NCBI GenBank assembly: GCA_018222765.1
Contig: JAAEZT010000014.1
Coordinates: 37,007-101,006 of the forward strand
Direction: 5' to 3'
Length of the DNA: 64,000 bases
Source: a bacterium
Lineage (GTDB): Bacteria > Verrucomicrobiota > Verrucomicrobiia > Verrucomicrobiales > Akkermansiaceae
A program made the translations under genes and the position numbers. The notes beneath the pieces were generated by a model. That model ran no database searches, had not been told where the DNA came from, and worked only from the letters and a program-made list of their open reading frames with translations. This document shows, piece by piece, positions 18,176 to 59,980 of this stretch (its first letter is position 1; each line of letters starts with the position of its first letter).

Positions 18176-18258
18176 GCCGCCGTGGCGGAATTGGTAGACG
18201 CTGTGGATTTAAAATCCATTGATCCTAGATCGTGCGGGTTCGATCCCCGCCGGCGGTA
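18176..18258 (+). tRNA. tRNA-Leu (anticodon UAA), class II with a long variable arm
   Basis: Hand-folded. Acceptor is GCCGCCG/CGGCGGT (G1-U72 wobble). D arm is GCG-GAATTGGTAGA-CGC. Anticodon stem is GTGGA/TCCAT with loop TT-TAA-AA. Variable arm is GATC-CTA-GATC. T arm is GCGGG-TTCGATC-CCCGC, discriminator A. No CCA is encoded. Confidence 0.9.
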
Positions 18259-18301: not shown

Positions 18302-18823
18302 CTATCGGCTCAGTTCGGCAATTTTTTCGAGAAGTTCTTCGGCTTGCTTTGCAGCATCGACTTTGGGGAAGTGGTGGACGAGCTTCCCGTTGCGGAAGAG
18401 AAAGGTTTCCCGGTTAGGTTTTTTATCGGGGTGGACGACCTTGAAGGCATCACAAATTTTTCCATCGGTGTCCGCGAGGAGCGGGAAGGTGAGCCGTGAT
18501 TTGTCAGAAAAGGCTTTTTGGTCTGCCACGGTGTCCATGGAGACTCCGATGACTTGGATCTTTTTTTCGGTGAAAGTGGGCGCAGCAGCCTGCAGCGATT
18601 TGACTTGTTTCGCTCACCAGAATGTATTCGCGACCGGATAAAAGAAGATAGCGGCCCAAGGCCCGCTGAGGGCGTATTTGAGATCAACCAGTTGTCCGGT
18701 TTGGGCGGCGGCAGTAAGTTTGGGAGTCACCCAGCCTGCGGGGCGGGGTTCGACTTCTTCGTGGGTGGCGCAGCTTGAGAGAAGAATGGCAAGCAAGACG
18801 AGAAAGTTTGAGATGCGCATCAC
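18302..18823 (-). CDS. Bcp/PrxQ-type peroxiredoxin lipoprotein with in-frame UGA (18614..18616) at the peroxidatic Cys position; candidate selenoprotein
   Basis: ORFs 18614..18823 and 18302..18538 are in the same frame, separated by one TGA plus 25 sense codons. Read-through gives MMRISNFLVLLAILLSSC (lipobox) ...IFFYPVANTFW[UGA]AKQVKSLQAAAPTFTEKKIQVIGVSMDTVADQKAFSDKSRLTFPLLADTDG...RETFLFRNGKLV. The PxxxTxxC motif is matched with UGA at the C position. Confidence 0.65.
18580..18596 (-). promoter_or_regulatory. Candidate bacterial SECIS hairpin downstream of the peroxiredoxin UGA
   Basis: The mRNA reads GC(U)GCAG-GCUG-CUGCGC: a 6-bp stem with a bulged U and a G/U-containing tetraloop. The loop begins about 25 nt after the UGA. 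Folded by hand only. Confidence 0.35.
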
Positions 18824-53608: not shown

Positions 53609-53702
53609 ATCACCATGCGAAACATGGAAACATCCGAAGAATTCATTTTCGGCGCGCCGGGTTTTAGCGACTTCCTTCTCATAAAGCGTTTTGGCGAGAG
53701 AG

Positions 53703-53738
53703 AAAAAACCCCCGGGATTTGAGCCTGGGGGTCTTGTT
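53703..53738. terminator. Rho-independent terminator between convergent genes, strongest for the minus-strand thioredoxin-like gene
   Basis: AAAAAA-CCCCCGG-(loop)-CC(T)GGGGG-TCTTGTT. On the minus strand the stem is followed by UUUUUU. Confidence 0.7.
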
Positions 53739-53759
53739 CGGTTGAGAATTGACGAAAGG

Positions 53760-54155
53760 TTACCTCTTCGCGAGAAGCTTGGTCACGACAGCTTCTACTT
53801 CCTTCTTGCCATAGCGATGGCCGTCGATGGTCTGGACGAGTTTGCCATCTTTGTCGTTGGCGATGATGCCGTGGCCTTTGAGTTTGGCTTTTTTAATTTC
53901 CTCGGCGCTCTTGCCGGATCCGACGAGAACGTTCTGGAATTTGATCTTATTTCCCTTTGTCTTTTTGAGATCATTCACGATGACCTTGATTTTCGCACAC
54001 ATCGGTCATCCATCGTAGTAGTAGAATGAGAGAGTCGGCGTTTTTGCAGCGGTAGCTTTCTCGGCGTTTGGTTTAGAGGGCTCCTGGGCGGAGACCGGAT
54101 TGATTAAGAGGACCGGCGCCAGTGCAACTGCCAGCCATAGCATGGATTTTTTCAT
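53760..54155 (-). CDS. Secreted thioredoxin-fold protein with in-frame UGA (54006..54008) in a U-x-x-C redox motif; candidate selenoprotein
   Basis: The listed ORF 53760..54002 begins at the Met inside the motif. Reading the same frame upstream gives MKKSMLWLAVALAPVLLINPVSAQEPSKPNAEKATAAKTPTLSFYYYDG-[UGA]-PMCAKIKVIVNDLKK...IKFQNVLVG...GHGIIANDKDGKLVQTIDG... This is a signal peptide, then beta1, then the [U]PMC position of a thioredoxin fold. The upstream part is below the 60-aa ORF cut-off. Confidence 0.6.
53968..53986 (-). promoter_or_regulatory. Candidate bacterial SECIS hairpin downstream of the thioredoxin-like UGA
   Basis: The mRNA reads AGGUCAU-CGUGA-AUGAUCU, a 7-bp stem including one G-U pair. 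The apical loop contains GU and begins about 27 nt after the UGA. Folded by hand only. Confidence 0.3.
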
Positions 54156-54266
54156 CGCCCGACGATATCGAATTTGAGGGAGAGCACAATGAAAGACTCT
54201 GCGCGACTCTTACTTCGAGAAATCGCCGGGTTGCATTATCCCGGCGATTCCGAAGGTGAGTTGGGT

Positions 54267-55658: not shown

Positions 55659-55936
55659 GATGGGATCAATTGGAATCGCCCCTTAAACCGGTTAGGAGCG
55701 GAGAGGTTGCGTTTTTTTTTGGATTTTAGAGTGTGCCACCTGCCCTGTGTGCCCCTTCCCTCGTTTATCACCGTCCTTTTTCGGAGGCTTCTCGGAATGG
55801 TGGGGCATTTGTCCCGGCTGACGAGAGCATTACGGTGACCTTTGCGGAATTGCTTTCCCGTAGGCGTAAGTGGTCTGAATGAGAGTGCCTTACTTTAGAG
55901 GCTGATTTTTTTTTGAAGGGCGGTAGAATCCCCCTG

Positions 55937-58900
55937 ATGAGATTCTTTGGCTTGATCCCTTTGGTCACGGTAGCGCTGCTCGCCCCTGCGAAGGCTGATT
56001 TGGTGGCTCACTATGCTCTGGATGAGGCCGGGGGCGGAAGCGTAGTGACTGATTCGTTGGGAAATAATCCCGGGGCTTTGATTGGATCGGGGACCGCAAC
56101 GAAAGGGGTCTCCGCGCCCCACGGAACGGGCTATGATTTTGAGCTGAGATCCGGGTTTAGTATTCCGCCGACTGCGGCGGTGCGGCCAAGCGATCAATTC
56201 ACCATCACCTGGTGGTTTAAGCCCACCACGCTGAATGCTTTTGATCGCATGTATGAATCGCTTGCGGGAACGGGAAATGATGGGAACGGCATCCGCATTG
56301 ATTTGGGAGGTTCACCGGGGAATAAAGTGCGCGCTCTTTTACGCGATGGCAATGGCTCGACGAATACCGTTGTGACCAATCCGCTCGTGCTTTCGACAGG
56401 CAATTGGTATTTCTTTGCGCTGCGTTACGATTCGCTCCTTGGGGAATGTAAAGTGACTGTCCTTCAGGATACCGGAGGGAATATCGCGGGTTCGGCGATC
56501 ACGGGGGCAACGCAGACTAGCACGTCCCTGGGGACGAATGCCATCACCCATGCCACCGGGGTCTTTATCGCGGCCGATGAAGGCAGTGCGGCGGGGGGCA
56601 ACGACTTTGGCGGGGCGATGGATGATATCGCGATTTTTCAAACCGGCGATGCCTTTGGTGTGCTGACTGATGCGGAGTTGGCGGAAGTCTACAATGGTGG
56701 AGCGTTGGCTTTTGACCCCCCCGCTCCGCGGCCGACGATCAATTCGTTTTCAGCCGACTCGACTTCGGTGAGCAGCGGGCAACTTGTGACGCTGAGCTGG
56801 GATGTGGCCATGGCGGATACGATTGAAATCACTCCTGGATTTGGTCTTGTCAGCGGGGCCACGGGGTCGGTTGTTTTCAATGTTTCGGCGACCGAGATTT
56901 ATACTCTCACCGCGACGAATGCCGAGGGCAGCGTGAGTCAGAATTTGCAGATTACCGTCGACGGTCTCGATCTCGCTCCGCAGATCAGCGAATTCGTTGC
57001 GAGCAATTCCGAGTTTGACGATGGTGATGGCAATTCGACGGATTGGATTGAGATTCATAATCGCAATGTCACGTCTTTCGATCTCAGCGGGTATTATTTG
57101 ACGGACGACGCGAACCAACTTTCGAAGTGGGCTTTTCCGGCCGGGACCACGTTGACCGGAGAAGAGTATTTCGTGGTCTTTGCCTCCGGGACGAACGCGC
57201 CTGACAGCGCCGGGAATTTGCATACCAACTTCAGCCTGAAATCCGGCGGGGAATATCTCGCGCTCGTTGCGCCGAATGGCACCACGGTGATACAGGAATT
57301 TTCGCCGACGTATCCGGAGCAGAAGACGAACGCGAGTTATACTTCGGCGGGATATCTTTTGGAGCCCACGCCGCGAGCCGCGAATATTGGAACAGCGCAG
57401 GCGGGATTTGTGAAGGACACTTCTTTTGATGTCGACCGCGGGCATTACACCTCCGCGTTTGATGTCACGATTACGACCTCCACACCTGGAGCGGACATTT
57501 ATTACACTACCGACGGCACCGTTCCGTCGCCCGGTAATGGCACCTTGTATGCCGGCCCGGTGACGATCGCCACCACCACTGTCTTGAAAGCGGCGGCGTA
57601 TCAGAGCGGGTTTATTCCGACCGATGTCGATACGCAGAGTTATCTCTTCCTCAATGATGTTCTCACGCAGCCAAATAATCCGCCAAACACCACGACGACC
57701 TGGGCAGGTAAGATTGCTGATTACGAAATGGATCCCGATATCGTGACCGACCCGGCATACGCCAGCGACATGATCCCGGCTTTGCAGAAATTTCCTTCCT
57801 TGTCGCTGACTTTGGATCCCGATGATTTTTATGGTCCGCAGGGAATTTACCAAAATCCGCAAAGCGATGGCTCGAATTGGGAGCGCGCGGTTTCGGCGGA
57901 ATTACTCCCACACGACGGAAGTGAAGCGGGATTCCAAATCGACGCCGGGATTCGGATTCAAGGTGGCAGCAGCCGGAATCCCGATACGCCGAAGCACAGC
58001 ATGAGCCTGCGCTTTCGTAATGACTACGGCGCGGGGAAATTGAACTACCCGCTCTTCCGTGATTCACCGGATGGCCGGGATGCTGTGGAGAAATTCGATA
58101 CGCTGCAACTTCGTTCGGGATACAACTACGGCTGGACCCACCGTCACCCCTGGCAGTCGGACTACGCGCAATACAACCGTGATCAATTTTCAAACGACCT
58201 TTTTCGTGCGATGGGAAATCATGGCACCCACGGTCGATGGGTGCATCTCTACATCAATGGAATCTATTGGGGGATTTACCACATTCACGAACGTCCCGAT
58301 CAAGATTACATGGCGTCTTACTTTGGGGGGGAATCTGATGATTATGATGCCATCAATTCAGGGGCGGCGAAATCGGGGACGACGACGGCCTACAATGCCA
58401 TGGTGAATGTCGCCAAAGGAAATATTTCCGATTCTTCGGTATACGCCACGATGAAAACGCATCTCGATGTCGATGCCATGATTGACTACATGCTCATGAA
58501 TTTCTTTGTCGGGAACAACGACTGGGATGGTCACAACTGGCGGGCCGCGGGAACCGGTCCGACCGGAGTTCCATTCCAGTTTTTTGCCTGGGATACCGAA
58601 TTCGCGATCTCTCAAAATCGAAATGGAACTACTCCGATCAGCGGAGCGTTGATGATGAATGTCACAGGGAAAAATGGAAACAATCGCCCGACCGGAGTGC
58701 ACCAGGATCTCACTGGCAATGCGGACTATGTGATGCAATTTGCTGATCGGGCTCACGCGATGTTTTTCAATGGCGGCTTGTTTACTCCTTCGGGAGCAGA
58801 GGCGATTTGGCGTCGACGATCCGACGAAATGGATGTTGCGATCGTGGCGGAGTCCGCGCGTTGGGGAGACTACCGGGTTCACGTGCAGGCGGCGAGTAAT

Positions 58901-59980
58901 TGGAGTCAATCGGACTACGATCTGTATACCAGAGATGATCATTATTTCCCAAATCAGAACTGGATCACGGGAACCTATTTGCAACAACGTCCGGCGATTG
59001 TCCTTCAGCAACTCCGGGATCGGAATCTCTATCCGGATGTTGATGCGCCGGTTTACGGTCAGGTTGGAGGGGTTCTGACGATGACCAACCCCAATGGCTC
59101 TGGCACGATTTACTTTACCACCGATGGCTCCGATCCGCGTGACCAGGGTTCGCCGATCTATAGTGCGCCGATCAATCTCGTGACCAGTGCGACCTACAAT
59201 TCACGGGTTCTAGAAGGGGGAGTTTGGTCGGCACTGCAGTCGATGGATATTCTTACCGGTGTTCCTGCTAACGCCACGAACCTCGTTATCTCCGAAATCT
59301 ATTACAACGAGCCCGGTTCCGGAGAAGCGAATGAGTTCATCGAATTGACGAATATCTCTGAAGTGGAAATCAACTTGAGCAATCTTACCTTCACCGAGGG
59401 GCTGACCTATACCTTCCCGGTAGGAAATGTGTTGGCGCCTGGAGCACAACTCGTGCTTCGCCCAACCGACTATACCGGCAGTCTCGATAACGGTGGCGAG
59501 ACCATCACCTTAAATGATGCCAGTGGTGCGATCATCGAAAGCTTCACTTATGGCGATTCCCTGCCTTGGCCGGAAGCGGCGGACGGAGGAGGTCATAGTC
59601 TCGTGCGCATCAGTCCGGCTTCGCAACTCAACCCTCACGATGCAACAAGCTGGCGTGCCAGCACGGCGGTGGGAGGAAATGCCGGAACGACGGATTCCAC
59701 GACCTTCCCTGGTGGTGATGATGCGGCGTTGTTGTCTTATGCCTTCGGGGACAGTGATGTTGATTTGGGCGCAGTCTTGGGAACCGTGGTGGTGCCAAGA
59801 AATCTCGCCGCCGATGATGTCATCGTCACGGTGCAGACTTCCATCGATCTTATCAACTGGACCGATCTCACGGAGGTCTCGGATGAAACCCTCCCTGCAG
59901 GCGGCCTCAGTTCACAGACCTACACCGTGGATCCCGAAGGCCTGAAAAGATTCTTCAGGGTGGCTATGCAGTTGCGTTAG
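55937..59980 (+). CDS. Giant secreted LamG - Ig-like - LTD - CotH - LTD protein with the recurrent C-terminal module
   Basis: The ATG at 55937 gives MRFFGLIPLVTVALLAPAKA; the listed ORF starts at a TTG (55913). The LamG is paralogous to the one at 22391.. The first LTD reads ISEFVASNSEFDDGDGNSTDWIEIHNRN..LSGYYLTDD. CotH blocks are HGRWVHLYINGIYWGIYHIHERPD and NDWDGHNW. The second LTD reads LVISEIYYNEPGSGEANEFIELTNIS. The tail reads ...RNLAADDVIVTVQTSIDLINWT...KRFFRVAMQLR. Confidence 0.8.
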   Translation: MRFFGLIPLVTVALLAPAKADLVAHYALDEAGGGSVVTDSLGNNPGALIGSGTATKGVSAPHGTGYDFELRSGFSIPPTAAVRPSDQFTITWWFKPTTLNAFDRMYESLAGTGNDGNGIRIDLGGSPGNKVRALLRDGNGSTNTVVTNPLVLSTGNWYFFALRYDSLLGECKVTVLQDTGGNIAGSAITGATQTSTSLGTNAITHATGVFIAADEGSAAGGNDFGGAMDDIAIFQTGDAFGVLTDAELAEVYNGGALAFDPPAPRPTINSFSADSTSVSSGQLVTLSWDVAMADTIEITPGFGLVSGATGSVVFNVSATEIYTLTATNAEGSVSQNLQITVDGLDLAPQISEFVASNSEFDDGDGNSTDWIEIHNRNVTSFDLSGYYLTDDANQLSKWAFPAGTTLTGEEYFVVFASGTNAPDSAGNLHTNFSLKSGGEYLALVAPNGTTVIQEFSPTYPEQKTNASYTSAGYLLEPTPRAANIGTAQAGFVKDTSFDVDRGHYTSAFDVTITTSTPGADIYYTTDGTVPSPGNGTLYAGPVTIATTTVLKAAAYQSGFIPTDVDTQSYLFLNDVLTQPNNPPNTTTTWAGKIADYEMDPDIVTDPAYASDMIPALQKFPSLSLTLDPDDFYGPQGIYQNPQSDGSNWERAVSAELLPHDGSEAGFQIDAGIRIQGGSSRNPDTPKHSMSLRFRNDYGAGKLNYPLFRDSPDGRDAVEKFDTLQLRSGYNYGWTHRHPWQSDYAQYNRDQFSNDLFRAMGNHGTHGRWVHLYINGIYWGIYHIHERPDQDYMASYFGGESDDYDAINSGAAKSGTTTAYNAMVNVAKGNISDSSVYATMKTHLDVDAMIDYMLMNFFVGNNDWDGHNWRAAGTGPTGVPFQFFAWDTEFAISQNRNGTTPISGALMMNVTGKNGNNRPTGVHQDLTGNADYVMQFADRAHAMFFNGGLFTPSGAEAIWRRRSDEMDVAIVAESARWGDYRVHVQAASNWSQSDYDLYTRDDHYFPNQNWITGTYLQQRPAIVLQQLRDRNLYPDVDAPVYGQVGGVLTMTNPNGSGTIYFTTDGSDPRDQGSPIYSAPINLVTSATYNSRVLEGGVWSALQSMDILTGVPANATNLVISEIYYNEPGSGEANEFIELTNISEVEINLSNLTFTEGLTYTFPVGNVLAPGAQLVLRPTDYTGSLDNGGETITLNDASGAIIESFTYGDSLPWPEAADGGGHSLVRISPASQLNPHDATSWRASTAVGGNAGTTDSTTFPGGDDAALLSYAFGDSDVDLGAVLGTVVVPRNLAADDVIVTVQTSIDLINWTDLTEVSDETLPAGGLSSQTYTVDPEGLKRFFRVAMQLR

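What the first reader, a model, noticed from the sequence alone, without database searches (positions are those of the whole stretch)
53760..54155. Secreted thioredoxin-fold protein with UGA in a U-x-x-C motif: second candidate selenoprotein, currently seen only as an 80-aa ORF
Seen in the sequence:
- The listed ORF (53760..54002) starts at the Met that lies inside the redox motif.
- The same frame continues upstream through one TGA (54006..54008) to an ATG at 54155.
- This gives MKKSMLWLAVALAPVLLINPVSA|QEP...TPTLSFYYYDG-[UGA]-PMCAKIKVIVNDLKK..IKFQNVLVG..GHGIIANDKDGKLVQTIDG..
- A 7-bp hairpin with a CGUGA loop (53968..53986) has its loop beginning about 27 nt after the UGA.
- A strong terminator follows the gene.

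Established knowledge:
- In thioredoxin-fold proteins the CxxC motif follows beta-1 at the N-terminus of helix 1 (...F(W/Y)A.WC..C...). The UGA falls on the first Cys.
- Thioredoxin- and DsbA-like UxxC/CxxU proteins are known bacterial selenoprotein families.

Inference:
- This is a Sec-containing periplasmic oxidoreductase.
- Finding two such genes 35 kb apart makes coincidence by nonsense mutation unlikely.
Basis: partly seen in the sequence, partly recalled or inferred. Interest (0 to 1): 0.8.

Follow-up and report, generated by a model that had tools for sequence, protein, structure and literature searches.

The report
Exported thioredoxin-fold selenoprotein, mis-annotated everywhere
This gene most likely encodes a small secreted thioredoxin-like protein whose key active-site residue is selenocysteine, read from a UGA "stop" codon; it belongs to a family of marine Verrucomicrobia proteins that no curated database holds and that public gene calls always truncate.

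Summary
On the minus strand one frame runs from ATG 54155 through a single TGA (54006..54008) to TAA 53760. It gives a 131-residue protein: signal peptide, ...FYYYDG-U-PMC..., thioredoxin fold.

Comparative evidence supports selenocysteine strongly:
- The codon is TGA in 45/45 gene copies in the window and 43 related Verrucomicrobiales loci, and in two distant subfamily members.
- Remote homologues (<35% identity) carry Cys (CxxC) at that column.
- Both sides of the TGA are under purifying selection (dN/dS 0.18-0.26 upstream, 0.15 downstream).
- The V-I-V-N codons 22-33 nt after the UGA show almost no synonymous change.
- They form a 6-bp hairpin with a CGUGA loop, paired in every sequence, with compensatory changes in distant TGA forms and absent from Cys forms.
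- It fits the published bacterial SECIS model.
- TGA is an ordinary stop elsewhere in the window.
- One family-bearing contig carries tRNA-Sec.
- The window holds a second TGA-at-Cys gene (AhpC/TSA).

selA/B/D could not be checked for this genome. The family reaches no Pfam or NCBIfam threshold. It has His-Gly where thioredoxins have the cis-Pro, and a second invariant His. Its substrate is unknown. Verdict: a new family of a well-known kind.

The parts
53760..54155 (-). Full read-through coding sequence: 131 residues (130 standard plus Sec at position 50), then the TAA stop
   Evidence: Frame read directly. The same architecture is present in 43 related loci. dN/dS is below 0.3 on both sides of the TGA.
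54087..54155 (-). Signal peptide, residues 1-23: MKKSMLWLAVALAPVLLINPVSA, with likely cleavage before QEP
   Evidence: Sequence features: a KK n-region, a hydrophobic core and a V-S-A cleavage motif. This is inference, as no signal-peptide predictor was run. An equivalent N-terminal hydrophobic segment, or a lipobox Cys, is present in all homologues.
54006..54008 (-). In-frame UGA, proposed selenocysteine codon (residue 50)
   Evidence: TGA in 45/45 family copies and in the distant members L046 and L048. It aligns with Cys (TGT) in remote homologues.
53997..54008 (-). U-P-M-C redox motif, at the end of strand beta-1 and the N-terminus of helix alpha-1
   Evidence: AF2 model of the orthologue P0001: beta-1 spans residues 34-39, the helix starts at 44, and the U position is 43. 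[U/C]-x-x-C is invariant across the superfamily.
53969..53985 (-). SECIS-like hairpin GGUCAU-CGUGA-AUGAUC (loop at 53975..53979); it lies within the VIVND codons of helix alpha-1
   Evidence: Codon entropy is 0-0.15 at V-I-V-N, against 0.8-1.9 at other invariant columns. All 6 pairs are kept in 40/40 and 22/22 sequences. Two pairs show compensatory changes, and 0/500 shuffles reach the covariation score. The hairpin is absent at this register in four Cys forms. It fits the bSECIS constraints in PMC13188914.
53868..53873 (-). Invariant His95-Gly96, immediately before strand beta-3, the position of the cis-Pro in thioredoxins
   Evidence: Invariant in Sec and Cys forms. Its position relative to beta-3 comes from the model. 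The equivalence to the cis-Pro loop is inference from thioredoxin-fold topology.
53817..53822 (-). Gly112-His113 in the beta-4/alpha-3 loop; the His is invariant across the superfamily
   Evidence: position from the model.
53703..53731 (-). Likely intrinsic terminator: a GC-rich interrupted stem followed by UUUUUU
   Evidence: Fold. The consensus scan did not flag it.
53760..54002 (-). 80-aa ORF as called in public databases (artefact: the C-terminal 61% of the protein)
   Evidence: The exact 80-aa product is called on 20 metagenome contigs. About 70 clusters of such fragments were found.
54006..54155 (-). 49-aa N-terminal ORF ending at the UGA (artefact when called separately)
   Evidence: It is called as a separate gene in L177. 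P0079 and P0080 are fragments of this kind.

Best explanation
The locus encodes one 131-residue pre-protein.

Proposed course of events (inferred):
- Translation starts at ATG 54155.
- At UGA 54008..54006, SelB carrying Sec-tRNA(Sec) is recruited by a small mRNA hairpin (GGUCAU-CGUGA-AUGAUC) whose loop starts 27 nt downstream.
- Selenocysteine is inserted and translation continues to TAA 53760.
- The signal peptide sends the protein across the inner membrane.
- The mature ~108-residue domain is a minimal thioredoxin fold (b1-a1-b2-a2-b3-b4-a3) with a U-P-M-C motif at the start of helix 1. It most likely cycles between a selenol/thiol and a selenylsulfide, acting as a periplasmic oxidoreductase.
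- Two invariant histidines sit in the two loops that flank the active site in thioredoxin folds: H-G replacing the usual cis-Pro, and G-H after beta-4. They probably take part in catalysis or in binding a metal or substrate.

Shown here: the frame, TGA conservation, Sec/Cys pairing with homologues, purifying selection on both sides, RNA-level constraint and covariation of the hairpin, the predicted fold, and standard use of TGA elsewhere in the window.

Inferred: actual Sec insertion, export, redox chemistry, and the role of the histidines. The substrate is unknown.
For: - Frame and motif.
- TGA at the same column in 45/45 copies from 43 species-level genomes plus the window. Also in two members of a distant lipoprotein subfamily.
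- Genuine Cys (TGT) forms with CxxC at the same column.
- dN/dS is 0.26 for the 45 codons upstream, 0.18 for the 13 codons just before the TGA, and 0.15 downstream.
- Synonymous sites are frozen at GTC ATC GTG AAT (45/45, 44/45, 44/45, 45/45), while other invariant columns vary freely.
- The hairpin is 100% paired, with compensatory U:A to C:G and G:C to A:U changes; 0/500 shuffles reach the covariation score. L046 reads GACCAU-CGUGA-AUGGUC and L048 reads GGCCAU-GGUUC-AUGGCC at the same register.
- The hairpin fits the bSECIS model (3-9 nt loop, at least 4 bp, G then U/G within the first loop positions, 16-37 nt from the UGA): PMC13188914. The 56 nt from the UGA fold to -7.7 kcal/mol.
- AF2 model: pLDDT above 90 over the domain, thioredoxin topology. 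Foldseek top hits are thioredoxins, TM 0.6-0.72, probability 1.00.
- TGA ends 6 of 31 long ORFs and TGG makes up 1.57% of codons, so the code is standard.
- tRNA-Sec (ARAGORN; Rfam RF01852, 63.2 bits) lies on family-bearing contig L041.
- A second TGA-at-catalytic-Cys gene (AhpC/TSA, 94.6 bits) is in the same window.
Against: - No tRNA-Sec, selA, selB or selD was found in the 64-kb window or in the 43 loci other than L041. The Sec trait of this genome is therefore inferred, not shown.
- No Rfam SECIS family matches.
- The window's hairpin is thermodynamically weak, and a competing helix that pairs the UGA is preferred in the single-sequence fold.
- Stem variation is limited: most pairs never vary within the main family, so covariation rests on a few sequences.
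- No protein-level evidence exists.
- Function: there is no conserved gene neighbourhood across the family, and no family HMM reaches threshold. The cis-Pro expected of classical thiol-disulfide oxidoreductases is missing.
Confidence: 0.9

Rival explanations
1. The UGA is read through or recoded with a standard amino acid (Trp, Cys or Arg by near-cognate decoding, or a lineage-specific UGA-to-Trp code), not with selenocysteine. The hairpin only stimulates read-through.
For: Public gene callers already give 'W' at this position on short contigs. UGA-to-Trp reassignment is reported in some Verrucomicrobiota (abstract of PMC13462651). The Sec machinery was not seen for this genome.
Against: TGA terminates 6 of 31 long ORFs in the window, and TGG is used normally at 1.57% of codons. 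The column aligns with the first Cys of CxxC in homologues, not with Trp. The hairpin has the G-U loop signature and spacing of SelB-dependent elements. tRNA-Sec lies on a family-bearing contig. A second UGA-at-catalytic-Cys gene is in the window. The 'W' entries translate as stops with table 11.
Confidence: 0.04
2. Termination at the UGA is the main outcome. The locus gives a 49-residue exported peptide and/or a separately initiated 80-residue cytoplasmic protein, as the databases annotate it.
For: An ATG follows the UGA by one codon in the window. UGA recoding is known to compete with RF2 termination (established knowledge; abstract of PMC4513850). All public annotations call the 80-aa ORF.
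Against: Strand beta-1 and the first redox residue lie upstream of the UGA. Without them the 80-aa product lacks one strand of the sheet and half of the U/CxxC motif. The U-V-L/F-C subgroup has no ATG at that place. The upstream part is under purifying selection in the same frame. Cys homologues are single continuous proteins.
Confidence: 0.04
3. The gene is a pseudogene inactivated by a nonsense mutation of a Cys (TGT/TGC to TGA).
For: A single base change converts TGY to TGA. In one sequence alone this cannot be excluded.
Against: The TGA is present in 47/47 sequences spanning 43-99% protein identity, with no frameshifts or further stops, and dN/dS is 0.15-0.26 on both sides. The tandem two-domain version has the TGA in both domains.
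Confidence: 0.01

Closest known systems
Bacterial thioredoxin-like and glutaredoxin-like UxxC selenoproteins (Trx PF00085, Grx PF00462 and the exported 'thiol:disulfide interchange', DsbA-like and DsbG-like forms listed in Table 1 of PMC13188914)
   Same: Thioredoxin fold. Sec replaces the first Cys of CxxC at the N-terminus of helix 1. The SECIS hairpin lies in the coding region just downstream of the UGA. Cys homologues exist. Several of these families are exported.
   Different: The Pfam models for Thioredoxin, Glutaredoxin/Glrx-like, Redoxin and Thioredoxin_5 score 13-15 bits against cut-offs of 23-27. The cis-Pro position holds His-Gly instead, and there is a second invariant His. Within Verrucomicrobiales no Cys orthologue was found; Sec is used in every copy.
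NCBIfam curated (seleno)protein families, e.g. DF family NF049942, VPGUxxT NF041383, Uxx-star NF041212, GOS_C NF045500, SaoT NF040730
   Same: Small proteins, often truncated in databases at an in-frame UGA, with a thioredoxin- or glutaredoxin-like N-terminal beta-1/U-x-x motif.
   Different: The best match is the DF family at 12.7 bits against a cut-off of 70. The others do not appear at E<=1 for the window protein. So this is not a member of any curated family in release 20.0.
E. coli fdhF/fdnG-type bacterial SECIS and the general bSECIS model
   Same: A stem-loop in the ORF downstream of the UGA. The small apical loop has G followed by U near its 5' side. Its distance from the UGA is within 16-37 nt.
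   Different: The stem is only 6 bp, with no conserved lower helix or bulged U detected. The loop lies about 8 nt further from the UGA than in fdhF (from memory, not checked). No Rfam SECIS model matches.
Sco/SenC copper chaperones (thioredoxin fold, CxxxC plus a distal His binding Cu)
   Same: An exported thioredoxin-fold protein in which active-site cysteines plus histidine are the conserved residues. It is a possible analogy for a metal-handling role.
   Different: The motif spacing is U/C-x-x-C, not C-x-x-x-C. There is no Pfam SCO1-SenC hit at E<=1. There are two His rather than one. Metal binding is untested.

Membership tests
Bacterial selenoprotein gene (SelB/SECIS-dependent UGA recoding) | In-frame UGA conserved in orthologues, with coding conservation on both sides | tested here: met
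   TGA in 45/45 copies plus 2 distant members. dN/dS is 0.18-0.26 upstream and 0.15 downstream.
Bacterial selenoprotein gene (SelB/SECIS-dependent UGA recoding) | Homologues with Cys at the aligned position (Sec/Cys pair) | tested here: met
   CxxC forms P0113, P0120, P0127, P0129, P0142 and P0162 are confirmed as TGT or as continuous ORFs.
Bacterial selenoprotein gene (SelB/SECIS-dependent UGA recoding) | [quoted passage not shown] | tested here: met
   6-7 bp stem, loop C-G-U-G-A, 26 nt of spacing. The 56 nt from the UGA fold to -7.7 kcal/mol, only just within the limit.
Bacterial selenoprotein gene (SelB/SECIS-dependent UGA recoding) | selA, selB, selC (tRNA-Sec) and selD present in the same genome | tested here: inconclusive
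   None are in the 64-kb window or in 42 of the 43 loci. tRNA-Sec is on family-bearing contig L041. Whole genomes could not be scanned with these tools.
Bacterial selenoprotein gene (SelB/SECIS-dependent UGA recoding) | Selenium demonstrated in the protein (75Se labelling or mass spectrometry) | not testable with these tools
   An experiment is required.
Rfam SECIS families | Covariance-model match at or near the gathering score | tested here: not met
   No SECIS hit with gathering thresholds on the window, or at E<=10 on 53700..54200.
Thioredoxin-fold superfamily | b1-a1-b2-a2-b3-b4-a3 topology with the redox motif at the N-terminus of a1 | tested here: met
   AF2 model with pLDDT above 90 over the domain. 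Foldseek top 50 against PDB is dominated by thioredoxins, TM 0.5-0.76, probability 1.00.
Thioredoxin-fold superfamily | Conserved cis-Pro in the loop before b3 | tested here: not met
   That position holds the invariant His-Gly; no Pro is present there in any member. The positional equivalence is inferred from topology.
Pfam Thioredoxin (PF00085) / Glutaredoxin (PF00462) / Glrx-like (PF05768) / Redoxin (PF08534) | Score at or above the Pfam gathering threshold | tested here: not met
   12.8-15 bits against cut-offs of 23.5-26.6 for the window protein with U changed to C. Nine of ten Cys homologues are also below threshold.
NCBIfam curated selenoprotein families (DF family NF049942 and others) | Score at or above the curated cut-off | tested here: not met
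   The DF family scores 12.7 bits against 70. The best of all models is TrxA NF047697 at 24.4 bits against 140.
Genomes with UGA reassigned to Trp (tables 4/25) | TGA absent as a stop and frequent in-frame at Trp positions | tested here: not met
   TGA ends 6 of 31 long ORFs. ORFs of up to 1355 codons have no internal TGA. TGG makes up 1.57% of codons.
Sco/SenC copper chaperones | CxxxC motif plus SCO1-SenC family homology | tested here: not met
   The motif is UxxC, and PF02630 does not appear at E<=1.

The most novel reading that the evidence does not exclude
The four invariant residues (Sec/Cys, Cys, His of the H-G that replaces the cis-Pro, and His of the G-H loop) form a periplasmic metal site with a selenolate ligand, or a metal-dependent catalytic site, on a thioredoxin scaffold. 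This would be a Sco-like metal-handling protein (Cu, Zn or Hg), and not a plain disulfide oxidoreductase. It would also explain why every Verrucomicrobiales copy keeps Sec.
Probability: 0.2. Interest if true: 0.7.

Novelty: new member of a known kind. Interest (0 to 1): 0.45.

Why it matters
Thioredoxin-fold UxxC selenoproteins are a well-known kind. A 2026 review (PMC13188914) lists 119 prokaryotic selenoprotein families.

This family matters in four ways:
- It matches none of the curated models.
- It is Sec-only across a whole order of abundant marine bacteria.
- It is systematically mis-annotated in public data: about 70 protein clusters appear as 72-83-aa fragments, some appear as 'W' forms produced by table-4 gene calls, and the N-terminal part is sometimes called as a separate 49-aa ORF.
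- It places selenocysteine use in marine Akkermansiaceae, Verrucomicrobiaceae, Rubritalea and Roseibacillus.

It also gives a clean example of an mRNA element that freezes the amino-acid sequence of a helix (VIVND). The Sec-Cys-His-His constellation without cis-Pro is an unusual active site that is worth biochemical study.

Tried and rejected
- Rfam, gathering and E<=10 modes: no SECIS family matched.
- tblastn with E. coli SelA, SelB and SelD against the window and 43 loci: nothing found.
- Metagenome scan with the tRNA-Sec pattern of L041: 120 contigs were returned, many with selA/selB/selD. The contigs whose tRNA-Sec is 89% or more identical to L041's carry no sel genes in the stretch fetched, and none carries the family gene. 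No verrucomicrobial SelA/SelB was obtained, so no link to family-bearing genomes could be made.
- Gene neighbourhood: synteny holds only among genus-level relatives (L001, L002, L018). There is no family-wide partner. The Cys subfamily has its own conserved gene row (224-aa, 107-aa, 300-500-aa, alpha/beta-hydrolase) that is absent from the window. Single neighbours such as Metal_resist, Rhodanese and An_peroxidase were not recurrent.
- PDB sequence search with the family profile: nothing below E=0.38.
- P0087 (5514 aa, 22 stretches) and P0130 from the exhaustive search are repeat-protein false positives.
- The rival helix GAUGACC/GGUCAUC that pairs the UGA is preferred by the single-sequence MFE. 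It was rejected as the conserved structure: it is broken in the UGA-GUG subgroup and in L046 and L048, without compensation.
- The AhpC-like selenoprotein of the window was not found in the other loci.
- The consensus terminator scan was negative; the terminator call rests on folding.

Full report
**What is in the sequence**

On the minus strand a single frame runs from ATG 54153..54155 through one TGA (54006..54008) to TAA 53760..53762. The mechanical ORF list shows it as two pieces: 49 aa (54006..54155) and 80 aa (53760..54002).

The read-through product is MKKSMLWLAVALAPVLLINPVSA|QEPSKPNAEKATAAKTPTLSFYYYDG-[UGA]-PMCAKIKVIVNDLKK...GHGIIANDKDGKLVQTIDGHRYGKKEVEAVVTKLLAKR.

**Is the TGA more than a chance stop?**

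A protein search found about 70 clusters of 72-83-aa proteins that start at or next to the internal Met. It also found N-terminal fragments ending ...YYYDG, and seven 'full-length' 124-130-aa proteins with W at the TGA column. The W forms come from short contigs and are table-4 gene calls: the same genes read as stops with table 11.

A scan of one genome per species returned 43 loci. They are marine Akkermansiaceae, Verrucomicrobiaceae, Rubritalea and Roseibacillus, plus two bins labelled otherwise. In every one the frame continues upstream through a signal peptide and ...L[TS][FY]YY[FY]DG. The codon at the motif is TGA in 45/45 copies, counting the window, L041 and both domains of a tandem two-domain version in L036.

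Nei-Gojobori dN/dS over 325-503 sequence pairs:

| Region | dN/dS |
|---|---|
| 45 codons upstream of the TGA | 0.26 |
| 13 codons immediately before the TGA | 0.18 |
| Downstream of the TGA | 0.15 |

Both halves are therefore translated in this frame. A pseudogene and two independent ORFs are excluded. The U-V-L/F-C subgroup has no ATG after the TGA at all.

**Genetic code**

TGA ends 6 of 31 long ORFs in the window. ORFs of up to 1355 codons contain no TGA. TGG makes up 1.57% of codons. The UGA-to-Trp reassignment reported for some Verrucomicrobiota (PMC13462651) does not apply here.

**Sec/Cys pairing**

An exhaustive profile search of 1.84 billion representatives, and a second profile search, found remote homologues at 24-35% identity. 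They are continuous proteins with C-x-x-C at the same column:
- PGCPIC, PGCPLC, PECFLC and PxCFLC forms, confirmed as TGT or uninterrupted ORFs.
- A further lipoprotein subfamily..IVYYAIPG-[TGA]-PFCAK.., that again has TGA.

Across all of these the invariant columns are a Tyr in beta-1, [U/C], C, H-G and a second H.

**The RNA element**

In a codon alignment of the 45 copies, the four codons V-I-V-N (22-33 nt after the UGA) are GTC 45/45, ATC 44/45, GTG 44/45 and AAT 45/45, with entropy 0-0.15 bits. Other invariant Val, Ile, Asn, Gly and Lys columns of the same gene have entropy 0.7-1.9. This is a nucleotide-level constraint on top of the protein constraint.

The constrained bases form GGUCAU-CGUGA-AUGAYC:
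- All six pairs hold in 40/40 sequences.
- The D codon GAT/GAC toggles G:U and G:C. L033 carries a compensatory G:C to A:U change.
- The distant TGA forms keep a hairpin at exactly the same register with different letters: L046 GACCAU-CGUGA-AUGGUC and L048 GGCCAU-GGUUC-AUGGCC.
- On 22 diverse sequences the helix is 100% paired, two pairs show double changes, and 0/500 column shuffles reach the covariation score.
- Four Cys forms have no hairpin at that register.

The single-sequence MFE prefers a competing helix, GAUGACC/GGUCAUC, that includes the UGA. It is broken without compensation in the UGA-GUG subgroup and in L046 and L048.

The element meets the published bSECIS constraints: loop of 3-9 nt, stem of at least 4 bp, G followed by G/U in the first loop positions, and 16-37 nt from the UGA (PMC13188914). 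The energy criterion is met only narrowly: -7.7 kcal/mol for the 56 nt from the UGA, and -5.3 kcal/mol for the hairpin alone. No Rfam SECIS model matches.

One consequence is that the helix-1 sequence VIVND is frozen in the Sec forms but variable in the Cys forms (PIVDG, AAMTD, PMLAD, PLVTG).

**Sec machinery**

The window holds only tRNA-Leu(UAA) and no selA, selB or selD. The same is true of 42 of the 43 loci.

L041, a Roseibacillus MAG, carries a tRNA-Sec (anticodon UCA; Rfam RF01852, 63.2 bits against a gathering score of 47) 6 kb from its family gene.

The window also contains a second gene with TGA at a catalytic Cys column. It is an AhpC/TSA protein (94.6 bits) reading FFYPVANTFW-[UGA]-AKQ. 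This is the T-x-x-U arrangement of peroxiredoxin, a family listed as an experimentally verified selenoprotein.

An attempt to reach verrucomicrobial sel genes through tRNA-Sec-bearing metagenome contigs failed. The Sec trait of this particular genome is therefore a strong inference, not a demonstration.

**The protein**

An AlphaFold2 model of orthologue P0001 (51-sequence alignment) has pLDDT above 90 over residues 31-120. Its topology is b1(34-39)-a1(44-60)-b2-a2-b3(89-93)-b4(99-104)-a3, with the UGA residue at position 43, just before helix 1.

Foldseek against PDB returns thioredoxins at TM 0.6-0.72 and probability 1.00. At sequence level nothing reaches threshold:

| Library | Result |
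|---|---|
| Pfam (Thioredoxin, Glrx-like, Redoxin) | 13-15 bits against cut-offs of 23-27 |
| NCBIfam, best model (TrxA) | 24 bits against 140 |
| NCBIfam, nearest curated selenoprotein family (DF family) | 12.7 bits against 70 |
| PDB sequence search | nothing below E=0.38 |
| Pfam/NCBIfam on the ten Cys homologues scanned | nine below threshold in Pfam (P0145 reaches Pfam cut-offs); all below in NCBIfam |

The invariant H-G lies directly before b3, where thioredoxins, glutaredoxins and Dsb proteins have the cis-Pro. The invariant G-H lies in the b4-a3 loop. Both loops flank the CxxC in this fold, which is established fold knowledge.

All forms have a signal peptide or a lipobox, so the family is exported.

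**Mechanism and function**

The most likely reading has three parts: SelB/SECIS-directed insertion of Sec at residue 50, export, and a periplasmic selenol/thiol to selenylsulfide redox function.

The base after the UGA is C in 38 copies and G in 7. UGA-C is the weakest RF2 context in E. coli (from memory), which would favour recoding.

The two histidines and the missing cis-Pro set the family apart from classical disulfide oxidoreductases. They leave open a metal-binding or metal-dependent site (probability about 0.2).

Gene context gives no help. The gene is monocistronic with its own terminator-like hairpin (53703..53731). Its neighbours are conserved only within the genus.

**Novelty**

A 2026 review lists 119 prokaryotic selenoprotein families, most with NCBIfam or Pfam identifiers (PMC13188914). 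None of those models captures this protein. Earlier metagenome surveys may have lumped such reads under generic 'Trx-like' categories; I could not check this.

It is therefore a new family of a well-known kind, not a new kind. Its notable features are:
- Sec in every copy across an order of marine bacteria, with Cys only in remote relatives.
- A very small, almost sequence-invariant SECIS.
- A tandem two-Sec version (L036).
- Uniform mis-annotation in public databases: the exact 80-aa fragment is called on 20 contigs, and in L177 the 49-aa N-terminal piece is called as a separate gene.

Noticed in passing
window 18302..18823 (minus strand); TGA at 18614..18616: A second split ORF. It is an exported AhpC/TSA-family protein (Pfam 94.6 bits) with an in-frame TGA at the peroxidatic T-x-x-C column (FFYPVANTFW-U-AKQ). 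That makes it a peroxiredoxin-type selenoprotein candidate. It lies just downstream of tRNA-Leu(UAA) at 18176..18258. A small hairpin (GCAG-GCUG-CUGC) lies about 21-32 nt after the UGA, but the fold is no more stable than shuffles.
   Followed up: partly
L036 10082..10700 (also proteins P0064 and P0071): A Rubritalea-like relative has two tandem copies of the domain in one reading frame. Each copy has its own TGA and an identical GGUCAUCGUGAAUGAUC hairpin, so this is a predicted two-Sec protein. Database entries are the fragment between the two TGAs.
   Followed up: partly
window 54003..54014 and the aligned columns in L001-L043: Synonymous sites next to the UGA are also biased: the Gly codon before it is GGA in 37/42, and the Pro codon after it is CCG in 30/38. 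The resulting GGAUGACC is complementary to the 5' arm of the SECIS hairpin and mimics its 3' arm. Whether this is a codon-context effect or a real alternative pairing is unexplained.
   Followed up: partly
L041 16298..16391 (minus strand): tRNA-Sec (UCA), scoring 63.2 bits with Rfam, lies in a Roseibacillus MAG 6 kb from its family gene. Identical copies occur on the marine metagenome contigs L099, L132 and L135. No selA, selB or selD is adjacent.
   Followed up: partly
L009 (bin labelled Crocinitomicaceae) and L042 (bin labelled Lentisphaerales): Both carry the family gene at 54-70% identity to the Verrucomicrobiales copies, with the same TGA and hairpin. This could be mis-binning or lateral transfer.
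   Followed up: no
L178 4359..7429, L179 3802..7402, L181 3422..7420: The Cys subfamily (..RPTLSFYHIPxCFLC.., lipoproteins) sits at the end of a conserved row of genes without Pfam hits (224-aa coiled-coil/TM, 107-aa TM, 300-500-aa), in two of the three loci followed by an alpha/beta-hydrolase. In two of the three loci the row lies next to a lactate permease gene. This row is absent from the window.
   Followed up: partly
L031 5245..8182 and L032 3687..6549: tRNA-Leu(UAA) and a tmRNA (tag ADSNELALAA) lie a few kb from the family gene in two Akkermansiaceae MAGs. In the window the same tRNA-Leu is 35 kb away.
   Followed up: no
window 55913..59980 (plus strand): A 1355-aa secreted protein with LamG, LTD, CotH, CHB_HEX_C and Fn3_assoc domains (from precomputed Pfam hits on the identical contigs L173 and L174). 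It is divergently oriented from the 463-aa gene upstream of the selenoprotein gene, which has no Pfam hit.
   Followed up: no
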